From: Microcoleaceae cyanobacterium
GTDB taxonomy: Bacteria > Cyanobacteriota > Cyanobacteriia > Cyanobacteriales > Microcoleaceae
Reading direction: 5' to 3'
DNA: 64,000 nucleotides
NCBI GenBank assembly: GCA_051652765.1
Contig: JBOFUV010000022.1
Span: 1 to 64,000, forward strand
Position 1 is the stretch's first letter; each line of letters opens with the position of its first letter. Shown here piece after piece: positions 15,001 through 21,000 of this stretch. The position numbers are program-made.

Positions 15001-18000
15001 AGGGTGAGCCAGAATGGGTGGAGTTAGGGGCAGCGAAGGCGATTGATGAAGTGATCTTCCGATTGTTCATGAGGTTTTTAAAAGATCCACAGCAGGCTAG
15101 ACGGGGCGAAACTGAAACCATTAAAGCCTAGGCCCGGAAGTTGGATGAGGTGTTGATGCGACCGATTCGGCAGAAGTTGGGGAACAAAACCCATCTGTTA
15201 ATCTCCCCCGACGGCAACCTGAATCTGATTCCCTTCGAGGCGTTGGTGGATGAGGGCGGCCAGTATTTGCTTGAGAAGTACACTATCACTTACCTGACCA
15301 CCGGGCGGGATTTGTTGAAGTTGCAACTAGACATCCCCAGCCAACAGCCTCCGGTGATTGTGGCCGATCCGATTTTTGACCAGGAAGGCAAGCCCACAAA
15401 GGTTGTGGTTCAGGCCAGTTCGACCCGGGGTGTTCCATCCAGTGACCTGTCCAGAGGTGCTATTACCCGTTTCTATCCCTTGCCCGGAACGGCGGAGGAA
15501 GCCCAGGCCCTTCAAGTCTTGTTCCCCTGCCACGGTCTTCACCCAAGCCGCAGCCACCGAAAACGCCATCAAAAACCTGACCGTTCCCCAGATTCTCCAC
15601 ATCGCCACCCACGGCTTCTTCCTCCAGAATTTGGAACAGGTGGCTCCTCGCACTCCTGAGTTTGGGTCAATTGCCGCTGCTGCTCCCGCAATTCCCCTCC
15701 AGGAAAATCCGTTACTCCGTTCGGGGCTGGCCTTGGCGGGTTACAACCTCCGCAAAAGCGGTTCAGAAGATGGGGTGTTAACAGCGTTGGAAGTCGCGAC
15801 GAACCTGAATCTGCGGGGAACGGAGTTAGTGGTGCTTTCCGCCTGTGAAACTGGATTGGGGGCAGCGGAAAATAGCGAGGGTGTTTACGGGTTGCGGCGA
15901 GCATTAGTCATAGTAGGAGCGAGAAGTTCCGTCTTGAGTTTGTGGTGGGTGAATGATGCCGCCACCAAAGACTTGATGGTGAAGTATTACCAGCGGTTAC
16001 AACAGGGCATGGGACGTTCAGAGGCGTTGCGCCAAACCCAGTTAGAGATGTTGCGGAGTCCCGAATATCAGCACCCTTATTATTGGGCTGCGTTCCTACC
16101 TGCGGGGGATTGGAACCCCTTGAGACAGCAATCTGAAGTCAATGTTGTCATCCTGGCGTTGCTGAATGTAGAGATGAATCTGTCTGAGTTGTAAGTTTCC
16201 TCGCCCCTTAAATCCCCCAACCTTGGGGGCTATGAGAAATTCAACTCCCCCAGAATTGGGGGCCGGGGGGCGAATTCATCCTAAGATTCAGCAACAGCCA
16301 AAATTCTTCGCTTTGTTTTTTGAAAGCCCTGCACTGCAAGACTTTCAAAAAACATCTATAAAACACGCCTCAACGGAATTCTAGCTGCTGCCATTAGACT
16401 CGATCCCGAGTTTTTCGTTCCGTTGAAGTTTCAGGGGCTGCTGGAACATGAACATGGGGAGAGCGAGCCACCCTGAGCCAGCGGCCATCATCTGTAATGT
16501 ATCCCAACTCAACCAAATAGTCCCGACCACTTTCGTAAACTGGCATGTGGCGATCGCTATCGATCTCAGAACAATCAAACTCACGAACACTGTGGGGCTG
16601 CTCTTGGTTGATATCAATGCCAGTCACATCGTAGAGCCGGAGCTTCAGATCCCGACCTCCCTGATCCCGTAGGACTGCCTTCTCTGCCTCGGAAATCTCC
16701 CAGTATGCATAGACATCTGAGAAATCACGAGCTACCAGAATCAGCCGATCTTCATCTGTTGGACGCACAGGCGGATAAGGGGTTGTAGTCTCCACTTGAG
16801 GTCTGGATTGAGCAATTCCCAGGGTTGCTGCAGTTGCCGCAGTTGCCGCTGTTGCAGTCGCAGCAACAGTTCCAATTGTAGTTCCAACACTACTCTTCAC
16901 CGCATCATCCAGCGGCGTACACTTTGGAACTCGAACATGTTCCGAGCGGGCGGTCTTCACCCAACGACCATCCTCTGTGGTATATCCCAACTCAACCAGA
17001 TAGTCCCGATCGTCTAGGGCAATCGGCAAATGCATATCCTGGGCAAAAGCATCACACTCAAACTGCTTGACACTGTGGGGTTGCTGATTGTTAATATCAA
17101 TGCCTGTGACATCGTATAACTTCAGCGCAGGCCGATTTTCGGAGCGCCGCAGGGCAGCTTCATCAGCATCAGATAGTTCCCAATACGCATAGGCATTCCG
17201 ACAATTGCGAGGAGTCAGAATAATTCGCCCTGGACGAACCGGTGGTGGGGGTGGAGCAACTGGAGGAGGAGCGGCGACCGGAGCGACCTGTCCTCTACGC
17301 ATGAACAAGAAGGGTAATCCTAACAATGGCAAGAGCAATATCCACCAAGGAAACCCACCACGGCGCTCCGATTCTGTGGTCACAGTCGTCGAAGTTCTGG
17401 TATCTGCCGGAGCCGTTTCTACGGGCGTTGAAGTTTCAGTCGCTTCAACCGTGGGAGTAGCAGTTGCAACTGGAGTGGGGCTAGCAGTCTGAGTTCTAGC
17501 TTCTGCAATCACGCGCTCATTTTCAGGCGTTGTTGCGTAGCCTAGGTAGGCTTTGACATTGTCGCTAGGTTCAGGGCCTTTGTAGACATAGGCCAAAGGC
17601 TGAGAAAAGGGATATCTGGGATCATCGGGAAGGGTCAGGTGCATTTGGATGATCCGAACACCCGGTTGGTTCTGCACTTGATCGGCGATCGCATACCCAA
17701 CGCCATCAGCTCCTAGAGCCTCAATCACGGCCTTCGTGTCATCCTCAACCTGGGTTGCATTTGGGCCAGCTTCAAAAGGAGCCACTTGAAATACTGGGTA
17801 ACCGGCAAAGGCTCGACGAGTATCACTGGTTTCAGGACGATCAACCAGTTTCACAGGGGCAGACGGCCCGCCTACCTGTTCCCAATTGTCTACTTCGCCT
17901 CGGAAAATTTGAGCAAACTGGTCAATCGTCAGATTGCCATCAAAAGGGCTATCCGGCGCGACTAGAATTGCAATTTTATGGCGGGAAATAGGAACCTCTA

Positions 18001-21000
18001 CAAACCCTTCTGCCTTTTCTTCATCCGTCAAAGGGCGACCAATTGCAGCCAAGTCAACCTGGCTGTCTCTGAGGGCTTGCAGAGCCGCATCAGTTCCATT
18101 GGCAGATAGGGTAACTTCTGTACCCGAATACTGACCCTCAAACTTTTGTTTCAAAGCTTCGTTAATGGTCTCCATGCTGGAGGAACCATCGACTGTGATC
18201 TTTGTGCCTTCAGTAACACTTTCAGGCAAGGAAAAGGTGGACGTTGAAGAGGCAGGTGTTGCAGAAGTGGGCGTTTCAGAAGTGGGTGTTTCAGAAGTAG
18301 GTGTTTCAGATTGGGCAAACACAGGCTGAGTGGTCAACAGGGTCACCTGAAGCTTGGGAAATGCCTCAAAAGCCAAGAGCAAAGCTAAGGAGGTGACTAC
18401 AGTTTGGCCAATGCGGAATATTTTCATAAGAACAATCCTGTACAAGTTGGCGGGTTAGGTCAACATCACCCTGAAGATATGGCTGTAAGCCACCATAGTT
18501 GCAACTGCGATTTCAATCGTGATTTCAGCAGTGACTTCAGGGGATGCAAATTAGCAGAGTAGGTAGGGTAGGTTTATCAGCTAGGATTGATAAACCGACT
18601 GGCAAACTTGAACACATCTCCTAAATCTGTGCTTCCATCACGATTGCCATCCATGAACGCGGTGAGGAGTGAGTTGGCACCTGTGGTTCCAGGCCGATTT
18701 CCCATATTCATTAGACCCATAACCGAGGAAAGCAGCCCTGGCAACATGGTCTGTAGGGCAGAGGCATTGAGCCCTGTCTTCTGGGAGATCCCCTGAATCA
18801 GTTGTTGCTGCAACTGGGGTGTAATGAAAGAAGGCAACCCTCCGCCTGAATTTGCACCCGTAAATTGACCTACTAGGTTATCCAGAGATCCAAGTCCCCC
18901 GGCTGCCCCCTGTTGCTTTAAGACTGGGCCCAGAAATCCACCCAGGCTTGACATGACTGTCTGCATTGTTGAGGCGCTAACGCCCTGCCCTGCGCCTAAC
19001 TGCTGAACACCATTGAGCACATGACTCAGTTGATCAACATTTCCTTGTTGATTCGGGTCATTGATTGATTTTAAAACGTCAAAGAATAGTCCCATTGTTC
19101 TGAACCTTGCTAGAAGTTAATTAGAAAATTTACTCAGAGTAAAACGTCAGCCTATTCTAGGGTAGAAAAATAATGAACTGATAACGCTCGAACATACACC
19201 AACCTGGCCCACTGAACTGAATAAGTCAGAACAATCGCATCTGGTCGGCTCTCCTAGCTTTGGCTTGAGGGTGGAAATTGCAGTATGAGCCTCTGGTTGC
19301 TCTCTTGGCCTAGCAATGTCAATACACGGAAGGATACCGCATCTCAAGAAATTTCCGAATAAAATTTCATTGTTCTGATTGTCTAAAGCTTAAGAGAGCC
19401 CTTTGGTCAATGCACACCACTTGTCATACTCCAAGATTTTAATCACTCTATCCTTTTGATGAAAGCCACCCTCCCTTTTGTTATTTTTTTGTTATTTTTC
19501 ATACCTATGCTGAGTTCAGATTTTTGTAAATAATACTAGGGTCATATGGCTGAAAATTATACGCCTGAAGAACTGACAGCGATCGCCCAAGCTCCGATGA
19601 TGACAGGGCTATCTGTAGCAATGGTTGATATGGGGATTGTTTCAACTGCGGTTGAAGCGGCGGCTCTGTCCAAGCAAATTGCTGGGGTTGCGGAAAAGTA
19701 TCCCAACAACTCAGTGATTCAGTCTGTCTTTTCAATGGAGGCTCTCAAGAGCGGAAGAGCCAAAATGCAAAAGCCAGATATCAAGCCAGAAGAGGTTCAG
19801 TCTGGCGCTTTAGTCGCTAAAGCAATTGACACTATAAATTCCACTGTGGCAATGTTGAACGGAAAAGCGACTCCTGAAGAAATTCAGCAGTATAAAGAGT
19901 TTGTCTATGCCTGTGGCGAGGCTGTTGCCAATGCAGCGGGAAGTGGACTATTTGGATCTGGAACTAAGATCTCTGAGAAGGAAGCAGTCGCTTTAGAACA
20001 GTTCAAAACAGCCCTAGCCTAAGGGTAATCTGCGTTGATCTCAGTTGATCTAGCTTGATGTGGGTGTTGGCTGGTCTTGAATTTGCGAGGCCAACACCCG
20101 CAAATTAAGGTTTTTACAGATGTGTTGAGTTGATGCTAAGAAGTCCAACTTACAAAGTTTGTCCAGACAAGTCACTAGTTCGGAAAGTTCCTTTTTGGAA
20201 AGTTCCTTAGTAACAATCTCTCTGAATGTTTGAATCACTTGAAGGAGTTTCTCAGATGAAAGTTAGATCTGTGTTCAGTCGAACTGTTATGGTTGCCTTG
20301 GTGGGCCTAGTCTTTACAATTAGTTTCTTCGTCGGTGGTGTCGCTCAGGCCCTGCCGATTCGCACTCCCGCTGTTCCTGCTGCGCTAACAGACACGCTAA
20401 CAGATGCGATGACCGATGTTCTGACCTCTTCAGGCAAAAGCTTCCTCAACTCTGTGTTGGGTCAATACGCAAAGGCAGCCGAGGGTAGTTTTGATGAGAA
20501 TTTCAAGGCAGCCAAGCAAACCGTGAATGAACTGGCTGATGAGCTAGAGCGTGCTGCTAGCCCAGACCTCAAGCCTACTGAACGAGAGGCTATCCTTCGC
20601 AAAATTGGGGATACTCAGAAGTCTCTCCAGAAGATTGCTGCTTCCTTCACTGGACTAGCAGAAAATACAGAGAAGTTTGACCAGAAACTCCAGGGTTCTG
20701 TTGAAGACTTGTTGACCAATGTTAAAGGGCCAGTTCAAGCTCAATTCAAGAAAAACGAAGATGCTTTCAGCCAAGTTGCTAAGGCAATCTCCGCGATCGC
20801 GAATAATACTGACAATGTGAATCCAGATAACCTGACCAACACGATTAATCAGTTGGGCAGCAGTATCAAATCCTTGAACCAAGCGTTTGGTCTGGGTAGC
20901 AAGGCGCTTCAAGCAATCTCAGCCTTCACCAGCTAGCTAAGTTTGTTTGCTCTAAGTTTGTCTGCTCAGTGACTTGGCTAAGTCAGGTAAGTTTAGCAGG

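What a model noticed while it worked through the whole genome (the two positions that open the first line are those of the whole stretch)
16394..18427. Three single-pass membrane proteins joining a periplasmic PstS-like phosphate-binding domain to cytoplasmic DUF4912 (FN3 [...]
g00563 (677 aa, C22:16394-18427), g00379 (1200 aa, C15:1961-5563) and g01588 (1204 aa, C52:33014-36628) share one layout: signal-like N-terminus, PstS-type (PBP_like_2) domain, one Trp-rich membrane helix (FPWW..LLL), a Pro/Glu-rich linker and one to three DUF4912 domains. DUF4912 is otherwise found here in a soluble Rho_N-DUF4912 protein (g01934), so it is a cytoplasmic module; a confident model shows it is a fibronectin-III-like beta sandwich. 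The layout is that of a trans-membrane phosphate (oxyanion) sensor that reports to the cytoplasm through a protein-binding domain, separate from the Pst transporter's own PstS/SphX proteins (g01548, g01653, g02718, g03750).
Evidence so far: pfam.tsv rows and hydropathy: PBP_like_2 54-302 (E 1e-30 to 7e-35), TM at ~355-400, DUF4912 x1, x3, x2 (E 5e-19 to 1e-40). Seven DUF4912 copies of this genome aligned (A5, call 104: invariant W25, D49, C68, Y86, E89, G91, Y92, W99); AF2 mean pLDDT 86, pTM 0.79; Foldseek PDB: 29 hits E<=1e-3, the listed ones FN3 domains (5dft_A E 2e-4, TM 0.57/0.75; call 110). Six-frame search in 40 Cyanobacteriota genomes: PstS part in open frames of 720-1696 aa in 6 of the 13 other genomes with any match (all Cyanobacteriia), plain ~320-aa PstS elsewhere. 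Literature: 'DUF4912' occurs in 2 papers; one (PMC13613805, passage read, call 107) notes only the Rho_N-DUF4912 'Rho-like' protein, function unknown.
(Added by a program. Inside this text positions count along the whole contig: contig position 1 is position 1 of the stretch shown here. "Call 12" and the like, gene names such as g00115 and contig names such as C1 are that model's own, and its searches are not shown. The text may have been shortened before it was handed on; [...] marks where a part breaks off. The agent that wrote the report below was given it as the finding of a first reader that could run no searches.)

Follow-up and report, generated by a model that had tools for sequence, protein, structure and literature searches.

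The report
Membrane phosphate-binder with glycogen-linked tail
This gene encodes a single-pass membrane protein with a phosphate-binding domain outside the cell and two copies inside of a domain that in other bacteria is encoded beside a glycogen-branching enzyme, so it may link phosphate supply to carbon storage.

Summary
Window 16394-18427 (-) encodes 677 aa: an N-terminal signal-like segment, a PstS-type PBP_like_2 domain, one Trp-flanked membrane helix, a Pro-rich linker and two DUF4912 domains. Two paralogues on other contigs share the layout. The fusion is widespread in cyanobacteria.

New here: DUF4912 is not a generic FN3-like adaptor. The stand-alone DUF4912 gene lies directly upstream, on the same strand, of a GH57 1,4-alpha-glucan branching enzyme gene. 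This holds in 29 of 37 non-Cyanobacteriia genomes of the phylum (Pfam 9 of 10) and in 4 of 5 loci from three other phyla, one inside a glycogen operon. A fold of the DUF4912 domain with the genome's own GH57 enzyme gave weak support only.

The phosphate site is strongly conserved across 209 family members but has two family-specific changes. An Sll0540-like gene in another genome, carrying a motif of the crystallised Sll0540 chain, lacks the tail.

Best reading (about 0.4): an external oxyanion-binding domain anchors or controls glycogen-branching machinery at a membrane. The sensor idea is partly supported. Signalling, ligand and topology remain inferred.

The parts
16394..18427 (-). Whole ORF, 677 aa plus stop (alternative TTG start at 18445)
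18314..18427 (-). Residues 1-38: N-terminal signal-like segment. K2 and R5, hydrophobic core 10-28, a possible VFA|Q cleavage site. It could instead be an uncleaved anchor
   Evidence: read from the sequence; hydropathy; no signal-peptide predictor was available
17498..18232 (-). Residues 66-310: PstS-type periplasmic binding domain (PBP_like_2). Predicted ligand residues S82 S83 S84 T112 G130 R197 S201 D202 T203
17285..17356 (-). Residues 358-381: the single membrane helix GFPWWILLLPLLGLPFLFMRRG. The family motif is GGFPWW...LLWW followed by K/R
17228..17284 (-). Residues 382-400: Pro/Ala-rich linker
16907..17227 (-). DUF4912 copy 1 (residues 401-507); predicted beta sandwich
16754..16906 (-). 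Residues 508-558: Ala/Thr-rich, mildly hydrophobic spacer between the two DUF4912 copies (Kyte-Doolittle 1.40 at 521-539)
16433..16753 (-). DUF4912 copy 2

Best explanation
The gene encodes a type-I (N-out, C-in) single-pass membrane protein.

Outside the membrane (periplasm, or possibly the thylakoid lumen) sits a PstS-like Venus-flytrap domain of the Sll0540 clade. It most likely binds phosphate or a close oxyanion with modest affinity.

Inside, on a flexible Pro-rich tether, sit two DUF4912 beta-sandwich modules. They are paralogues of the DUF4912 domain of a soluble protein that is the conserved operon partner of the GH57 1,4-alpha-glucan (glycogen) branching enzyme.

Proposed mechanism: the tail binds the GH57 branching enzyme, or the nascent glucan it works on. 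It thereby holds or sequesters glycogen-branching machinery or granules at the membrane. Occupancy of the outer domain by phosphate would change the protein's conformation or clustering, and with it how much of that machinery is held. This would couple external phosphate supply to carbon storage without transcription.

Shown: the domain order, conservation of the ligand site, and the gene linkage between DUF4912 and GH57.
Inferred: the topology, the ligand, binding of the tail to the enzyme or to the glucan, and any regulation by phosphate.
For: 1. Architecture and paralogues. The helix carries a conserved GGFPWW...LLWW-K/R motif.

2. PBP domain:
- The best solved relative is 9l8j_A, 'Sll0540 protein', E 6.8e-55 over residues 71-310. 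The next PstS hits score E 1.6e-18.
- PMC13614923 (passages) says Sll0540 binds Pi with relatively low affinity.
- I mapped the nine Pi-contact residues of C. perfringens PBP-1 (PMC5381212, passage) through the alignment. They give S82, S83, S84, T112, G130, R197, S201, D202, T203.
- In 209 family PBP domains these positions are strongly conserved: S82 174, S84 183, T/S112 192, G130 193, R197 196, S201 203, D202 194, T203 181.

3. Linkage of DUF4912 to GH57:
- In 9 of 10 sampled non-photosynthetic-lineage loci, the DUF4912 gene is immediately upstream, on the same strand, of a Glyco_hydro_57 + BE_C gene.
- Crossing the coordinates by hand gives 29 of 37 such genomes.
- In a GH57-centred scan of genome contigs, 4 of the 5 loci outside Cyanobacteriota have it (Verrucomicrobiota x2, Planctomycetia, Thermodesulfobacteriota), and so does 1 cyanobacterial locus, L139.
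- L137 reads glycogen-synthase-like GT, then DUF4912, then GH57, then a CBM48 protein.
- G056, 99% complete, lacks both families, while its four sampled congeners have both.

4. The fused and stand-alone DUF4912 copies share the same invariant residues: W22, L41, D45, Y82, G87, Y88, W95, A99, S101 in 37 sequences.

5. Complex prediction, own GH57 enzyme against DUF4912 copy 1: verdict weak support.
- Score 0.39 (runs 0.06, 0.39, 0.50); best of 3 controls 0.00.
- The mark was reached by 116 of 157 solved complexes and by 2 of 215 mismatched pairs.
- At 0.60 or under it was reached by only 18 of those 157, and by both mismatches that passed.
- The runs agree in at least 84% of contacts; partner pLDDT is at least 78.
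- My own alignments were used, so the calibration counts hold only roughly.

6. A preprint (10.1101/2021.06.18.448987, passage) reports that in Melainabacteria the only branching enzyme found is of GH57 type.
Against: - No experiment or tool here shows that DUF4912 binds either the enzyme or a glucan.
- The complex score is weak, and one of the three runs scored 0.06.
- No DUF4912-GH57 fusion was found among 94 long homologues.
- DUF4912 shows no profile similarity to a CBM48 protein, and no CBM appears among its top fold matches.
- In Cyanobacteriia, where the fused form lives, the stand-alone gene is not next to GH57: 0 of 8 loci and 1 of 75 GH57 loci.
- GH57 is present without DUF4912 in family f22 (BE_C 49/50, DUF4912 1/50 and weak) and in f26 (8/8 against 0/8). 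The enzyme therefore does not need the partner.
- Two ligand positions differ from the reference: the Ser/Asp that accepts the phosphate proton is Gly130, and the loop Gly is Asp202. The ligand may not be phosphate.
- Topology rests on hydropathy alone.
- Gly/Ala-rich hydrophobic spacers lie in the tails: C15 520-538 (Kyte-Doolittle 2.19), C52 667-685 (1.82), this ORF 521-539 (1.40). They also occur between copies in P0121. If any of them spans the membrane, some DUF4912 copies would lie outside.
- No conserved neighbour ties the fused genes to glycogen or pst genes in 23 loci.
Confidence: 0.4

Rival explanations
1. Generic transmembrane phosphate (oxyanion) sensor. Ligand binding outside is passed to an unknown cytoplasmic protein through DUF4912 acting as a plain protein-protein adaptor, with no link to glycogen.
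For: - The layout matches, and the ligand site is conserved.
- The genome also has a CHAT-TM-PstS protein. A WD40-TM-DUF4912 protein (P0199) turned up among the database hits. Both suggest that ectodomains and tails are swapped as modules.
- The C15 paralogue is followed by a DICT-CHASE6-GAF histidine kinase.
- Histidine-kinase-like neighbours occur in 6 of 23 fused loci.
Against: - DUF4912 has a specific, cross-phylum gene linkage to GH57. This reading ignores it.
- There is no known output domain.
- By my rough estimate, not calculated, 6 of 23 kinase neighbours is about what the abundance of kinases in cyanobacteria would give.
- No Pho-box-like site lies upstream.
Confidence: 0.2
2. A membrane-tethered substrate-binding protein that simply delivers phosphate to a Pst ABC transporter. 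The cytoplasmic tail serves only for anchoring, positioning or turnover.
For: - It has a PstS-type fold and seven of nine contact residues.
- The Sll0540-like short form is a membrane-anchored PBP without a tail.
Against: - It scores below the NCBIfam PstS cut-offs: 102.7 against 206.6 and 26.5 against 205.
- No pstCAB genes lie nearby in any of 23 loci.
- The genome has six ordinary PBP_like_2 frames of 320-400 aa.
- One to ten conserved DUF4912 copies on long tethers are costly for a mere anchor.
- According to PMC13614923 (passage), Sll0540 responds little to phosphate limitation.
Confidence: 0.15
3. DUF4912 is a nucleic-acid- or polyanion-associated module (the 'Rho-like' reading, because of Rho_N). 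The membrane proteins would then tether RNA, DNA or polyphosphate to the membrane in response to phosphate.
For: - The stand-alone cyanobacterial proteins begin with Rho_N.
- PMC13613805 (passage) calls them Rho-like and leaves the function open.
- A phosphate-binding ectodomain would fit a polyphosphate theme.
Against: - Rho_N is missing from many GH57-linked DUF4912 proteins: L043, L045-L050, L134, L135, L137, L138. It is also missing from all fused forms.
- The paper itself notes there is no RNA-binding or ATPase domain.
- No gene linkage to RNA or polyphosphate genes was seen.
Confidence: 0.08
4. The topology is different. Further hydrophobic spacers span the membrane, or the protein is released, so that some or all DUF4912 copies act outside the cytoplasm.
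For: Hydrophobic Gly/Ala-rich spacers with Kyte-Doolittle up to 2.19 lie in the tails and between copies in P0121.
Against: - These spacers lack flanking positive charges.
- Homologous domains would have to alternate sides of the membrane.
- The stand-alone DUF4912 proteins and the GH57 enzyme have no signal peptides (PMC6629080 passage, for a GH57 enzyme).
Confidence: 0.05

Closest known systems
Sll0540 of Synechocystis sp. PCC 6803 (PDB 9L8J), the 'fourth' PstS homologue
   Same: It is the closest solved relative of the PBP domain (E 6.8e-55, residues 71-310). It is not encoded beside pst1 or pst2, responds little to Pi limitation and binds Pi with low affinity (PMC13614923, passages).
   Different: The Sll0540-like gene found through a 12-residue motif (1 of 401 genomes) encodes only 307 aa: an N-terminal anchor plus the PBP, with no C-terminal helix and no DUF4912. 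In the alignment, Sll0540 has Ser and Gly where 193 and 194 of 209 fused-family members have Gly130 and Asp202. The structure paper (Wang 2025, BBRC) was not held.
PstS/SphX substrate-binding proteins of the Pst phosphate ABC transporter
   Same: PBP_like_2 fold, with seven of nine phosphate-contact positions kept or conservatively replaced.
   Different: It scores below the NCBIfam cut-offs, has no pstCAB neighbours, is a membrane-spanning protein with a large cytoplasmic tail, and carries the family signature IGRP...SDTR.
Stand-alone (Rho_N-)DUF4912 protein encoded upstream of the GH57 glycogen branching enzyme
   Same: The same DUF4912 domain with the same invariant residues. The C15 paralogue also carries the stand-alone protein's C-terminal beta-sandwich region.
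   Different: It is soluble, has a single DUF4912 copy, often has Rho_N, and has no PBP and no membrane helix. Its function is also unknown in print ('DUF4912' occurs in 2 papers).
Membrane-tethered glycogen or starch scaffolds of eukaryotes (STBD1; PTST2 with thylakoid-associated MFP1). Recalled from memory, not from any call
   Same: This is what the protein may work like: a membrane anchor carrying non-catalytic modules that place glucan or glucan enzymes at a membrane.
   Different: Those use CBM20/CBM48 modules and have no ligand-binding ectodomain. No homology was shown: hhalign of DUF4912 against a CBM48 protein gave probability 0.3.
Receptors with Venus-flytrap/SBP ectodomains (for example BvgS-type sensor kinases). 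Recalled from memory
   Same: An SBP-fold domain outside and one membrane passage.
   Different: Those end in a kinase or another enzymatic output. Here the tail is made of non-enzymatic beta sandwiches.

Membership tests
DUF4912 (PF16258) | Pfam profile match above the gathering score | tested here: met
   212 bits against a 29.4 cut-off, two copies. Six-frame matches at 16907-17227 and 16433-16753.
PstS family phosphate-binding protein (TIGR02136 / TIGR00975) | Score above the curated NCBIfam cut-off | tested here: not met
   102.7 against 206.6 and 26.5 against 205. Pfam PBP_like_2 is met at 117.6 against 27.
PstS family phosphate-binding protein | The nine phosphate-contact residues of the reference structure (PBP-1: S11 T12 S13 S41 S59 R125 S129 G130 T131) | tested here: inconclusive
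   Seven are kept or conservatively replaced. S59 becomes G130 and G130 becomes D202. Both changes are the family consensus: 193 and 194 of 209.
PstS family phosphate-binding protein | Encoded with pstC, pstA and pstB | tested here: not met
   No pst genes among the neighbours in the window or at the two paralogues. No shared pst-like neighbour in 23 fused loci (neighbours were clustered by BLAST, and not all were scanned against Pfam).
PstS family phosphate-binding protein | Binds orthophosphate | not testable with these tools
   Needs ITC or a filter-binding assay on the purified domain.
Sll0540 clade of PBPs | Closest sequence relationship to the 9L8J chain | tested here: met
   E 6.8e-55 against 1.6e-18 for the next PstS.
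Sll0540 clade of PBPs | Same domain architecture | tested here: not met
   The Sll0540-like ORF in L140 is 307 aa and has no tail.
Fibronectin type III superfamily | FN3 beta-sandwich fold | tested here: inconclusive
   FN3 domains top both searches: Foldseek E 3.7e-4, TMq 0.56; VIA Z 9.1. Z of 8-9 is within the range of common arrangements. There is no Pfam fn3 match.
Carbohydrate-binding module (starch/glycogen-binding, e.g. CBM48) | Sequence or fold similarity to a known CBM; glucan binding | tested here: inconclusive
   hhalign against a CBM48 protein gave probability 0.3. No CBM is among the listed fold matches. Binding is not testable here.
Transmembrane signal transducer (sensor kinase, chemoreceptor, cyclase) | A recognised cytoplasmic output domain | tested here: not met
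   Only DUF4912 is found after the membrane helix.
GH57 branching-enzyme partner (proposed here) | Physical contact between DUF4912 and the GH57 enzyme | tested here: inconclusive
   Complex prediction gave weak support: 0.39 against a best control of 0.00. The mark was reached by 116 of 157 solved pairs and 2 of 215 mismatches; at <=0.60 by only 18 of the 157 and by both mismatches.

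The most novel reading that the evidence does not exclude
DUF4912 is a previously unrecognised module that binds the GH57 branching enzyme or organises glycogen, conserved in at least four phyla. Cyanobacteria have fused one to ten copies of it, through a conserved Trp-flanked helix, to an extracytoplasmic phosphate-binding domain. The result would be a receptor-scaffold that sets where and how glycogen is branched according to external phosphate. That would be a direct, non-transcriptional link from phosphorus status to carbon storage, and a bacterial counterpart of the membrane-tethered starch and glycogen scaffolds of eukaryotes.
Probability: 0.25. Interest if true: 0.85.

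Novelty: new variant of a known kind. Interest (0 to 1): 0.65.

Why it matters
Phosphate limitation and glycogen build-up are linked in cyanobacterial physiology, but no protein is known that physically joins the two.

This family is widespread: 816 hits in one search, and all 120 listed carry both domains. It is often present in several copies per genome. Databases annotate it only as 'PstS homologue' or 'DUF4912 protein'.

The gene linkage found here gives DUF4912 its first functional context, namely GH57 glycogen branching. DUF4912 has 3592 representatives at E<=1e-3 in the large library.

The linkage also turns a vague 'sensor' idea into concrete tests: binding of the tail to the enzyme or to glucan, and glycogen phenotypes with and without phosphate.

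It further suggests that the conserved cyanobacterial 'Rho-like' protein noted in PMC13613805 belongs to glycogen metabolism rather than transcription termination.

Tried and rejected
I used the GH57 alignment A3 instead. That scan was saturated by cyanobacteria: 75 of 80 loci.
- I looked for a DUF4912-GH57 gene fusion among long homologues of a planctomycete DUF4912 protein. There was none among 94 hits.
- A profile comparison of DUF4912 with a CBM48 protein gave probability 0.3.
- ESM Atlas, named clusters with PF16258 left out, gave no usable hit.
- I searched for a Pho-box-like site, using a recalled consensus written as YTTAAYYW-N3-YTTAAYYW with up to 3 mismatches. There were 81 hits in the window against 64 expected, and none between 17762 and 19438, that is, none upstream of the gene.
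- For expression, no RNA holder was listed.
- I looked for conserved neighbours of the fused genes in 23 loci. The only findings were histidine-kinase-like genes in 6 loci, a 370-aa gene in 3 loci, and a 131-aa ORF in 2 loci.
- The stand-alone gene is next to GH57 in 0 of 8 Cyanobacteriia loci.
- Foldseek with the full stand-alone model returned only FN3 hits to the DUF4912 part, so the fold of its C-terminal sandwich stays unassigned.
- The GH57 papers read for gene context (PMC6629080 and PMC6616209, passages) say nothing about an upstream partner.
- Wang 2025 (BBRC) and Pitt 2010 were not held.

Full report
THE GENE. Window 16394-18427 on the minus strand is an open frame of 677 codons from ATG. 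A TTG six codons upstream is an alternative start. Pfam finds PBP_like_2 at residues 66-302 (E 1.1e-33). It also finds DUF4912 with 212 bits, against a cut-off of 29.4, in two stretches. NCBIfam's PstS models match but stay far below their cut-offs: 102.7 against 206.6 and 26.5 against 205. The most hydrophobic 19-residue window is 358-376, GFPWWILLLPLLGLPFLFM, followed by RR. A second hydrophobic stretch lies at residues 10-28, behind K2 and R5. The order of parts is therefore a signal-like N-terminus, the PBP, a Thr/Pro-rich spacer, one helix, a Pro-rich linker, DUF4912, an Ala/Thr spacer and a second DUF4912.

THE PARALOGUES. The genome holds seven DUF4912 matches: two in this ORF, one in a 1200-aa protein on C15, three in a 1204-aa protein on C52, and one in a soluble Rho_N-DUF4912 protein on C65. 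The two long proteins repeat the PBP-helix-tail layout. The only correction is that this ORF has two DUF4912 copies.

THE FAMILY. A word-indexed search returned 816 proteins at E<=1e-3. All 120 listed carry both PF12849 and PF16258, and where a source names the organism it is a cyanobacterium. The best hit is 66% identical. A profile of 37 DUF4912 domains (A1) found 3592 representatives at E<=1e-3 among 1.84 billion; the top 150 are mostly multi-copy proteins. That helix carries a conserved motif, GGFPWW...LLWW followed by K/R. One relative, P0199, has a WD40 propeller in place of the PBP, followed by a helix and two DUF4912 copies. In 151 genomes of the phylum, DUF4912 was found in 90. Nearly every Cyanobacteriia genome has it as a frame of about 410-500 aa, and a subset also has frames of 590-1370 aa. 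Family f22 has it in 1 of 50 genomes (a weak match) and f26 in 0 of 8.

THE OUTER DOMAIN.
- The closest solved structure is 9l8j_A, 'Sll0540 protein' (E 6.8e-55). Other PstS structures follow at E 1e-18 or weaker.
- According to PMC13614923 (passages read; abstract), Sll0540 is a fourth PstS homologue of Synechocystis. It lies outside pst1 and pst2, responds little to Pi limitation, has relatively low Pi affinity and an unknown function, and is called possibly vestigial. The passages I read mention no membrane or tail domains.
- Other papers only list Sll0540 as a PstS homologue (PMC3610870, PMC5053081 and PMC11221513, passages; PMC3564720, search listing only).
- I took the nine contact residues of C. 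perfringens PBP-1 from PMC5381212 (passage) and mapped them through the alignment. The counterparts are S82, S83, S84, T112, G130, R197, S201, D202 and T203.
- Seven are kept or conservatively replaced. The serine that replaces the classic aspartate is Gly here, and the loop glycine is Asp.
- Across 209 full PBP domains of the fused family these positions are highly conserved, including G130 (193) and D202 (194), with invariant neighbours R131 and R204 (208 each).
- The site is therefore under selection, but it is a family-specific variant. An aspartate relocated to the loop is my speculation.

SLL0540 IS A SHORT FORM. A 12-residue motif of the 9l8j chain occurred in 1 of 401 genomes of the class. 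The ORF there (L140 1186-2109, minus strand) is 307 aa: an N-terminal anchor ending in GGGWWLW, then the PBP, then a stop. That genome had only one DUF4912 match, the stand-alone gene. The crystallised relative therefore most likely represents a tail-less form, and the fused architecture is not covered by that literature.

THE TAIL'S FOLD. My AF2 model of copy 1 with alignment A1 has pLDDT 89.7 and pTM 0.82, with seven to eight strands. Foldseek and VIA-align both put FN3 domains on top: E 3.7e-4 with TMq 0.56, and Z 9.1. The tool's own note says that Z of this size may reflect only a common sandwich.

THE TAIL'S GENE CONTEXT.
- In ten loci from non-photosynthetic lineages of the phylum, the single DUF4912 gene (394-557 aa, some with Rho_N) lies immediately upstream, on the same strand, of a Glyco_hydro_57 + BE_C gene in nine. 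The exception is L044.
- I crossed the printed coordinates of the DUF4912 and BE_C searches by hand. This gave 29 of 37 such genomes with BE_C about 2-2.6 kb downstream on the same contig and strand. Several of the eight exceptions are fragmented or incomplete assemblies.
- A GH57-centred scan of named genomes returned 80 loci, 75 of them cyanobacterial. Of the five from other phyla, four have DUF4912 directly upstream (L134 and L138 Verrucomicrobiota, L135 Planctomycetia, L137 Thermodesulfobacteriota). L136 does not.
- One cyanobacterial locus, L139, also has it.
- L137 reads glycogen-synthase-like glycosyltransferase, DUF4912, GH57, CBM48 protein.
- Three DUF4912 proteins show weak Glucodextran_B matches at their C-terminus.
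- G056, 99% complete, lacks both families, whereas its four sampled congeners have both.
- A preprint reports that Melainabacteria have only a GH57-type branching enzyme (10.1101/2021.06.18.448987, passage).
- In print, 'DUF4912' occurs in two papers. One is a cotton transcriptome (search listing only). The other, PMC13613805 (passage), notes a 'Rho-like' DUF4912 protein conserved in cyanobacteria with open function.
- A search for GH57 + branching enzyme + 'Rho termination factor' listed no paper holding the third term among the 15 shown.
- I therefore found no printed statement of the DUF4912-GH57 link in the library searched.

LIMITS OF THE LINK.
- In Cyanobacteriia the two genes are apart: 0 of 8 stand-alone loci and 1 of 75 GH57 loci.
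- GH57 exists without DUF4912 in f22 and f26.
- No fusion of the two was found.
- DUF4912 shows no profile similarity to CBM48.
- A fold of the genome's own GH57 enzyme (531 aa, alignment A3) with DUF4912 copy 1 gave 'weak support'. The score was 0.39 (runs 0.06, 0.39, 0.50) and the best of three controls 0.00.
- That mark was reached by 116 of 157 solved complexes and 2 of 215 mismatches. At 0.60 or under it was reached by only 18 of the 157 and by both mismatches.
- The runs agreed in at least 84% of contacts, and partner pLDDT was at least 78.
- Given the conserved operon, the prior was not low. Even so, this is a hint, not a demonstration.

THE STAND-ALONE PROTEIN AND THE C15 PARALOGUE. 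The stand-alone protein models as Rho_N helices, a disordered stretch, DUF4912 (pLDDT above 90), about 120 disordered residues and a C-terminal beta sandwich (pLDDT about 80). The C15 paralogue carries that same C-terminal region.

TOPOLOGY. I infer that the tail is cytoplasmic from four things. The N-terminal signal-like segment places the PBP outside. There is a single strong helix followed by basic residues. The stand-alone DUF4912 proteins have no signal peptide. Their operon partner acts on intracellular glycogen. The caveat is that the tails contain Gly/Ala-rich hydrophobic spacers: C15 520-538 (Kyte-Doolittle 2.19), C52 667-685 (1.82), this ORF 521-539 (1.40). The same occurs between copies in P0121. 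These spacers lack flanking positive charges, and I do not read them as membrane helices, but only experiments can settle this.

CONTEXT AND REGULATION.
- The neighbours in the window are a DUF937-like protein upstream and a TPR/CHAT gene in several frames downstream on the other strand.
- No gene family is shared around the fused genes in 23 loci beyond kinase-like genes in six.
- No Pho-box-like site (recalled consensus) lies upstream.
- No RNA run was listed.
- The genome has ten PBP_like_2 matches. Three are the fused forms, six are ordinary frames of 320-400 aa, and one is a 748-aa protein with CHAT, one helix and a PstS-like domain.

VERDICT. The sensor interpretation is partly supported.

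My best reading (0.4) is a type-I membrane protein whose outer Sll0540-clade domain binds phosphate or a close anion. Its inner DUF4912 modules would belong to the GH57 glycogen-branching system, so the protein would anchor or control that machinery at a membrane.

The rivals are a generic sensor with an unknown partner (0.2), a tethered PstS for uptake (0.15), a nucleic-acid or polyanion tether (0.08) and a different topology (0.05).

The family itself is catalogued in databases. The architecture's meaning and the DUF4912-GH57 link appear not to be described, so I class the finding as a new variant of a known kind.

Noticed in passing
own genome C115:43223-45469 (+), locus L141:727-2970: A 748-aa protein with an N-terminal CHAT (caspase-like) domain, one hydrophobic helix and a C-terminal PstS-like domain (TIGR02136, 153.9 bits). 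It is a second kind of membrane protein with a PstS ectodomain, here with a protease-like cytoplasmic part.
   Followed up: partly
own genome C52, locus L039:10727-11122 (-); also L143:10606-11001 (-): A 131-aa ORF lies directly upstream, on the same strand, of the C52-type fused gene. It is about 53% identical to that protein's own C-terminal domain, which has no Pfam match. It is a free-standing copy of the tail's last domain, seen in 2 of 23 loci.
   Followed up: partly
own genome C65:3-2150 (-), locus L040: After DUF4912, the genome's stand-alone Rho_N-DUF4912 protein runs into several hundred residues of near-perfect SGIGLT(T/A) repeats that reach the contig end. Orthologues elsewhere are about 410-450 aa and end in a beta sandwich instead.
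   Followed up: no
window 13785-16194 (+): A TPR-repeat plus CHAT gene appears split over three overlapping frames (13785-15131, 15141-15659, 15358-16194). This is either a frameshifted gene or assembly errors.
   Followed up: no
window 13170-13240: A run of 11-base-spaced near-repeats (CATGACCTAAAC / TTCAATCTAAAC type) upstream of the TPR gene showed up as five overlapping hits in the Pho-box pattern search.
   Followed up: no
locus L140:1186-2109 (-), genome G113: The Sll0540-like protein is a 307-aa PBP anchored at its N-terminus, and its anchor ends in GGGWWLW. The same Gly-Trp-Trp feature marks the outer end of the helix in the fused family.
   Followed up: partly
proteins P0121, own C15 520-538, own C52 508-526 and 667-685: The spacers between DUF4912 copies are often Gly/Ala/Val/Ile-rich and hydrophobic (Kyte-Doolittle up to 2.19) without flanking charges. 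Their role is unexplained; self-association or membrane association are possibilities.
   Followed up: no
families f22 and f26: Where DUF4912 is missing, the GH57 open frames are longer: about 575-615 aa in f22 and 560-843 aa in f26, against about 530-560 aa elsewhere. The extensions might stand in for the missing partner.
   Followed up: no
locus L038:5675-7717 (+), downstream of the C15 paralogue: A histidine kinase with DICT, CHASE6_C, GAF, HisKA and HATPase domains follows the C15 fused gene on the same strand, 112 bases away.
   Followed up: no
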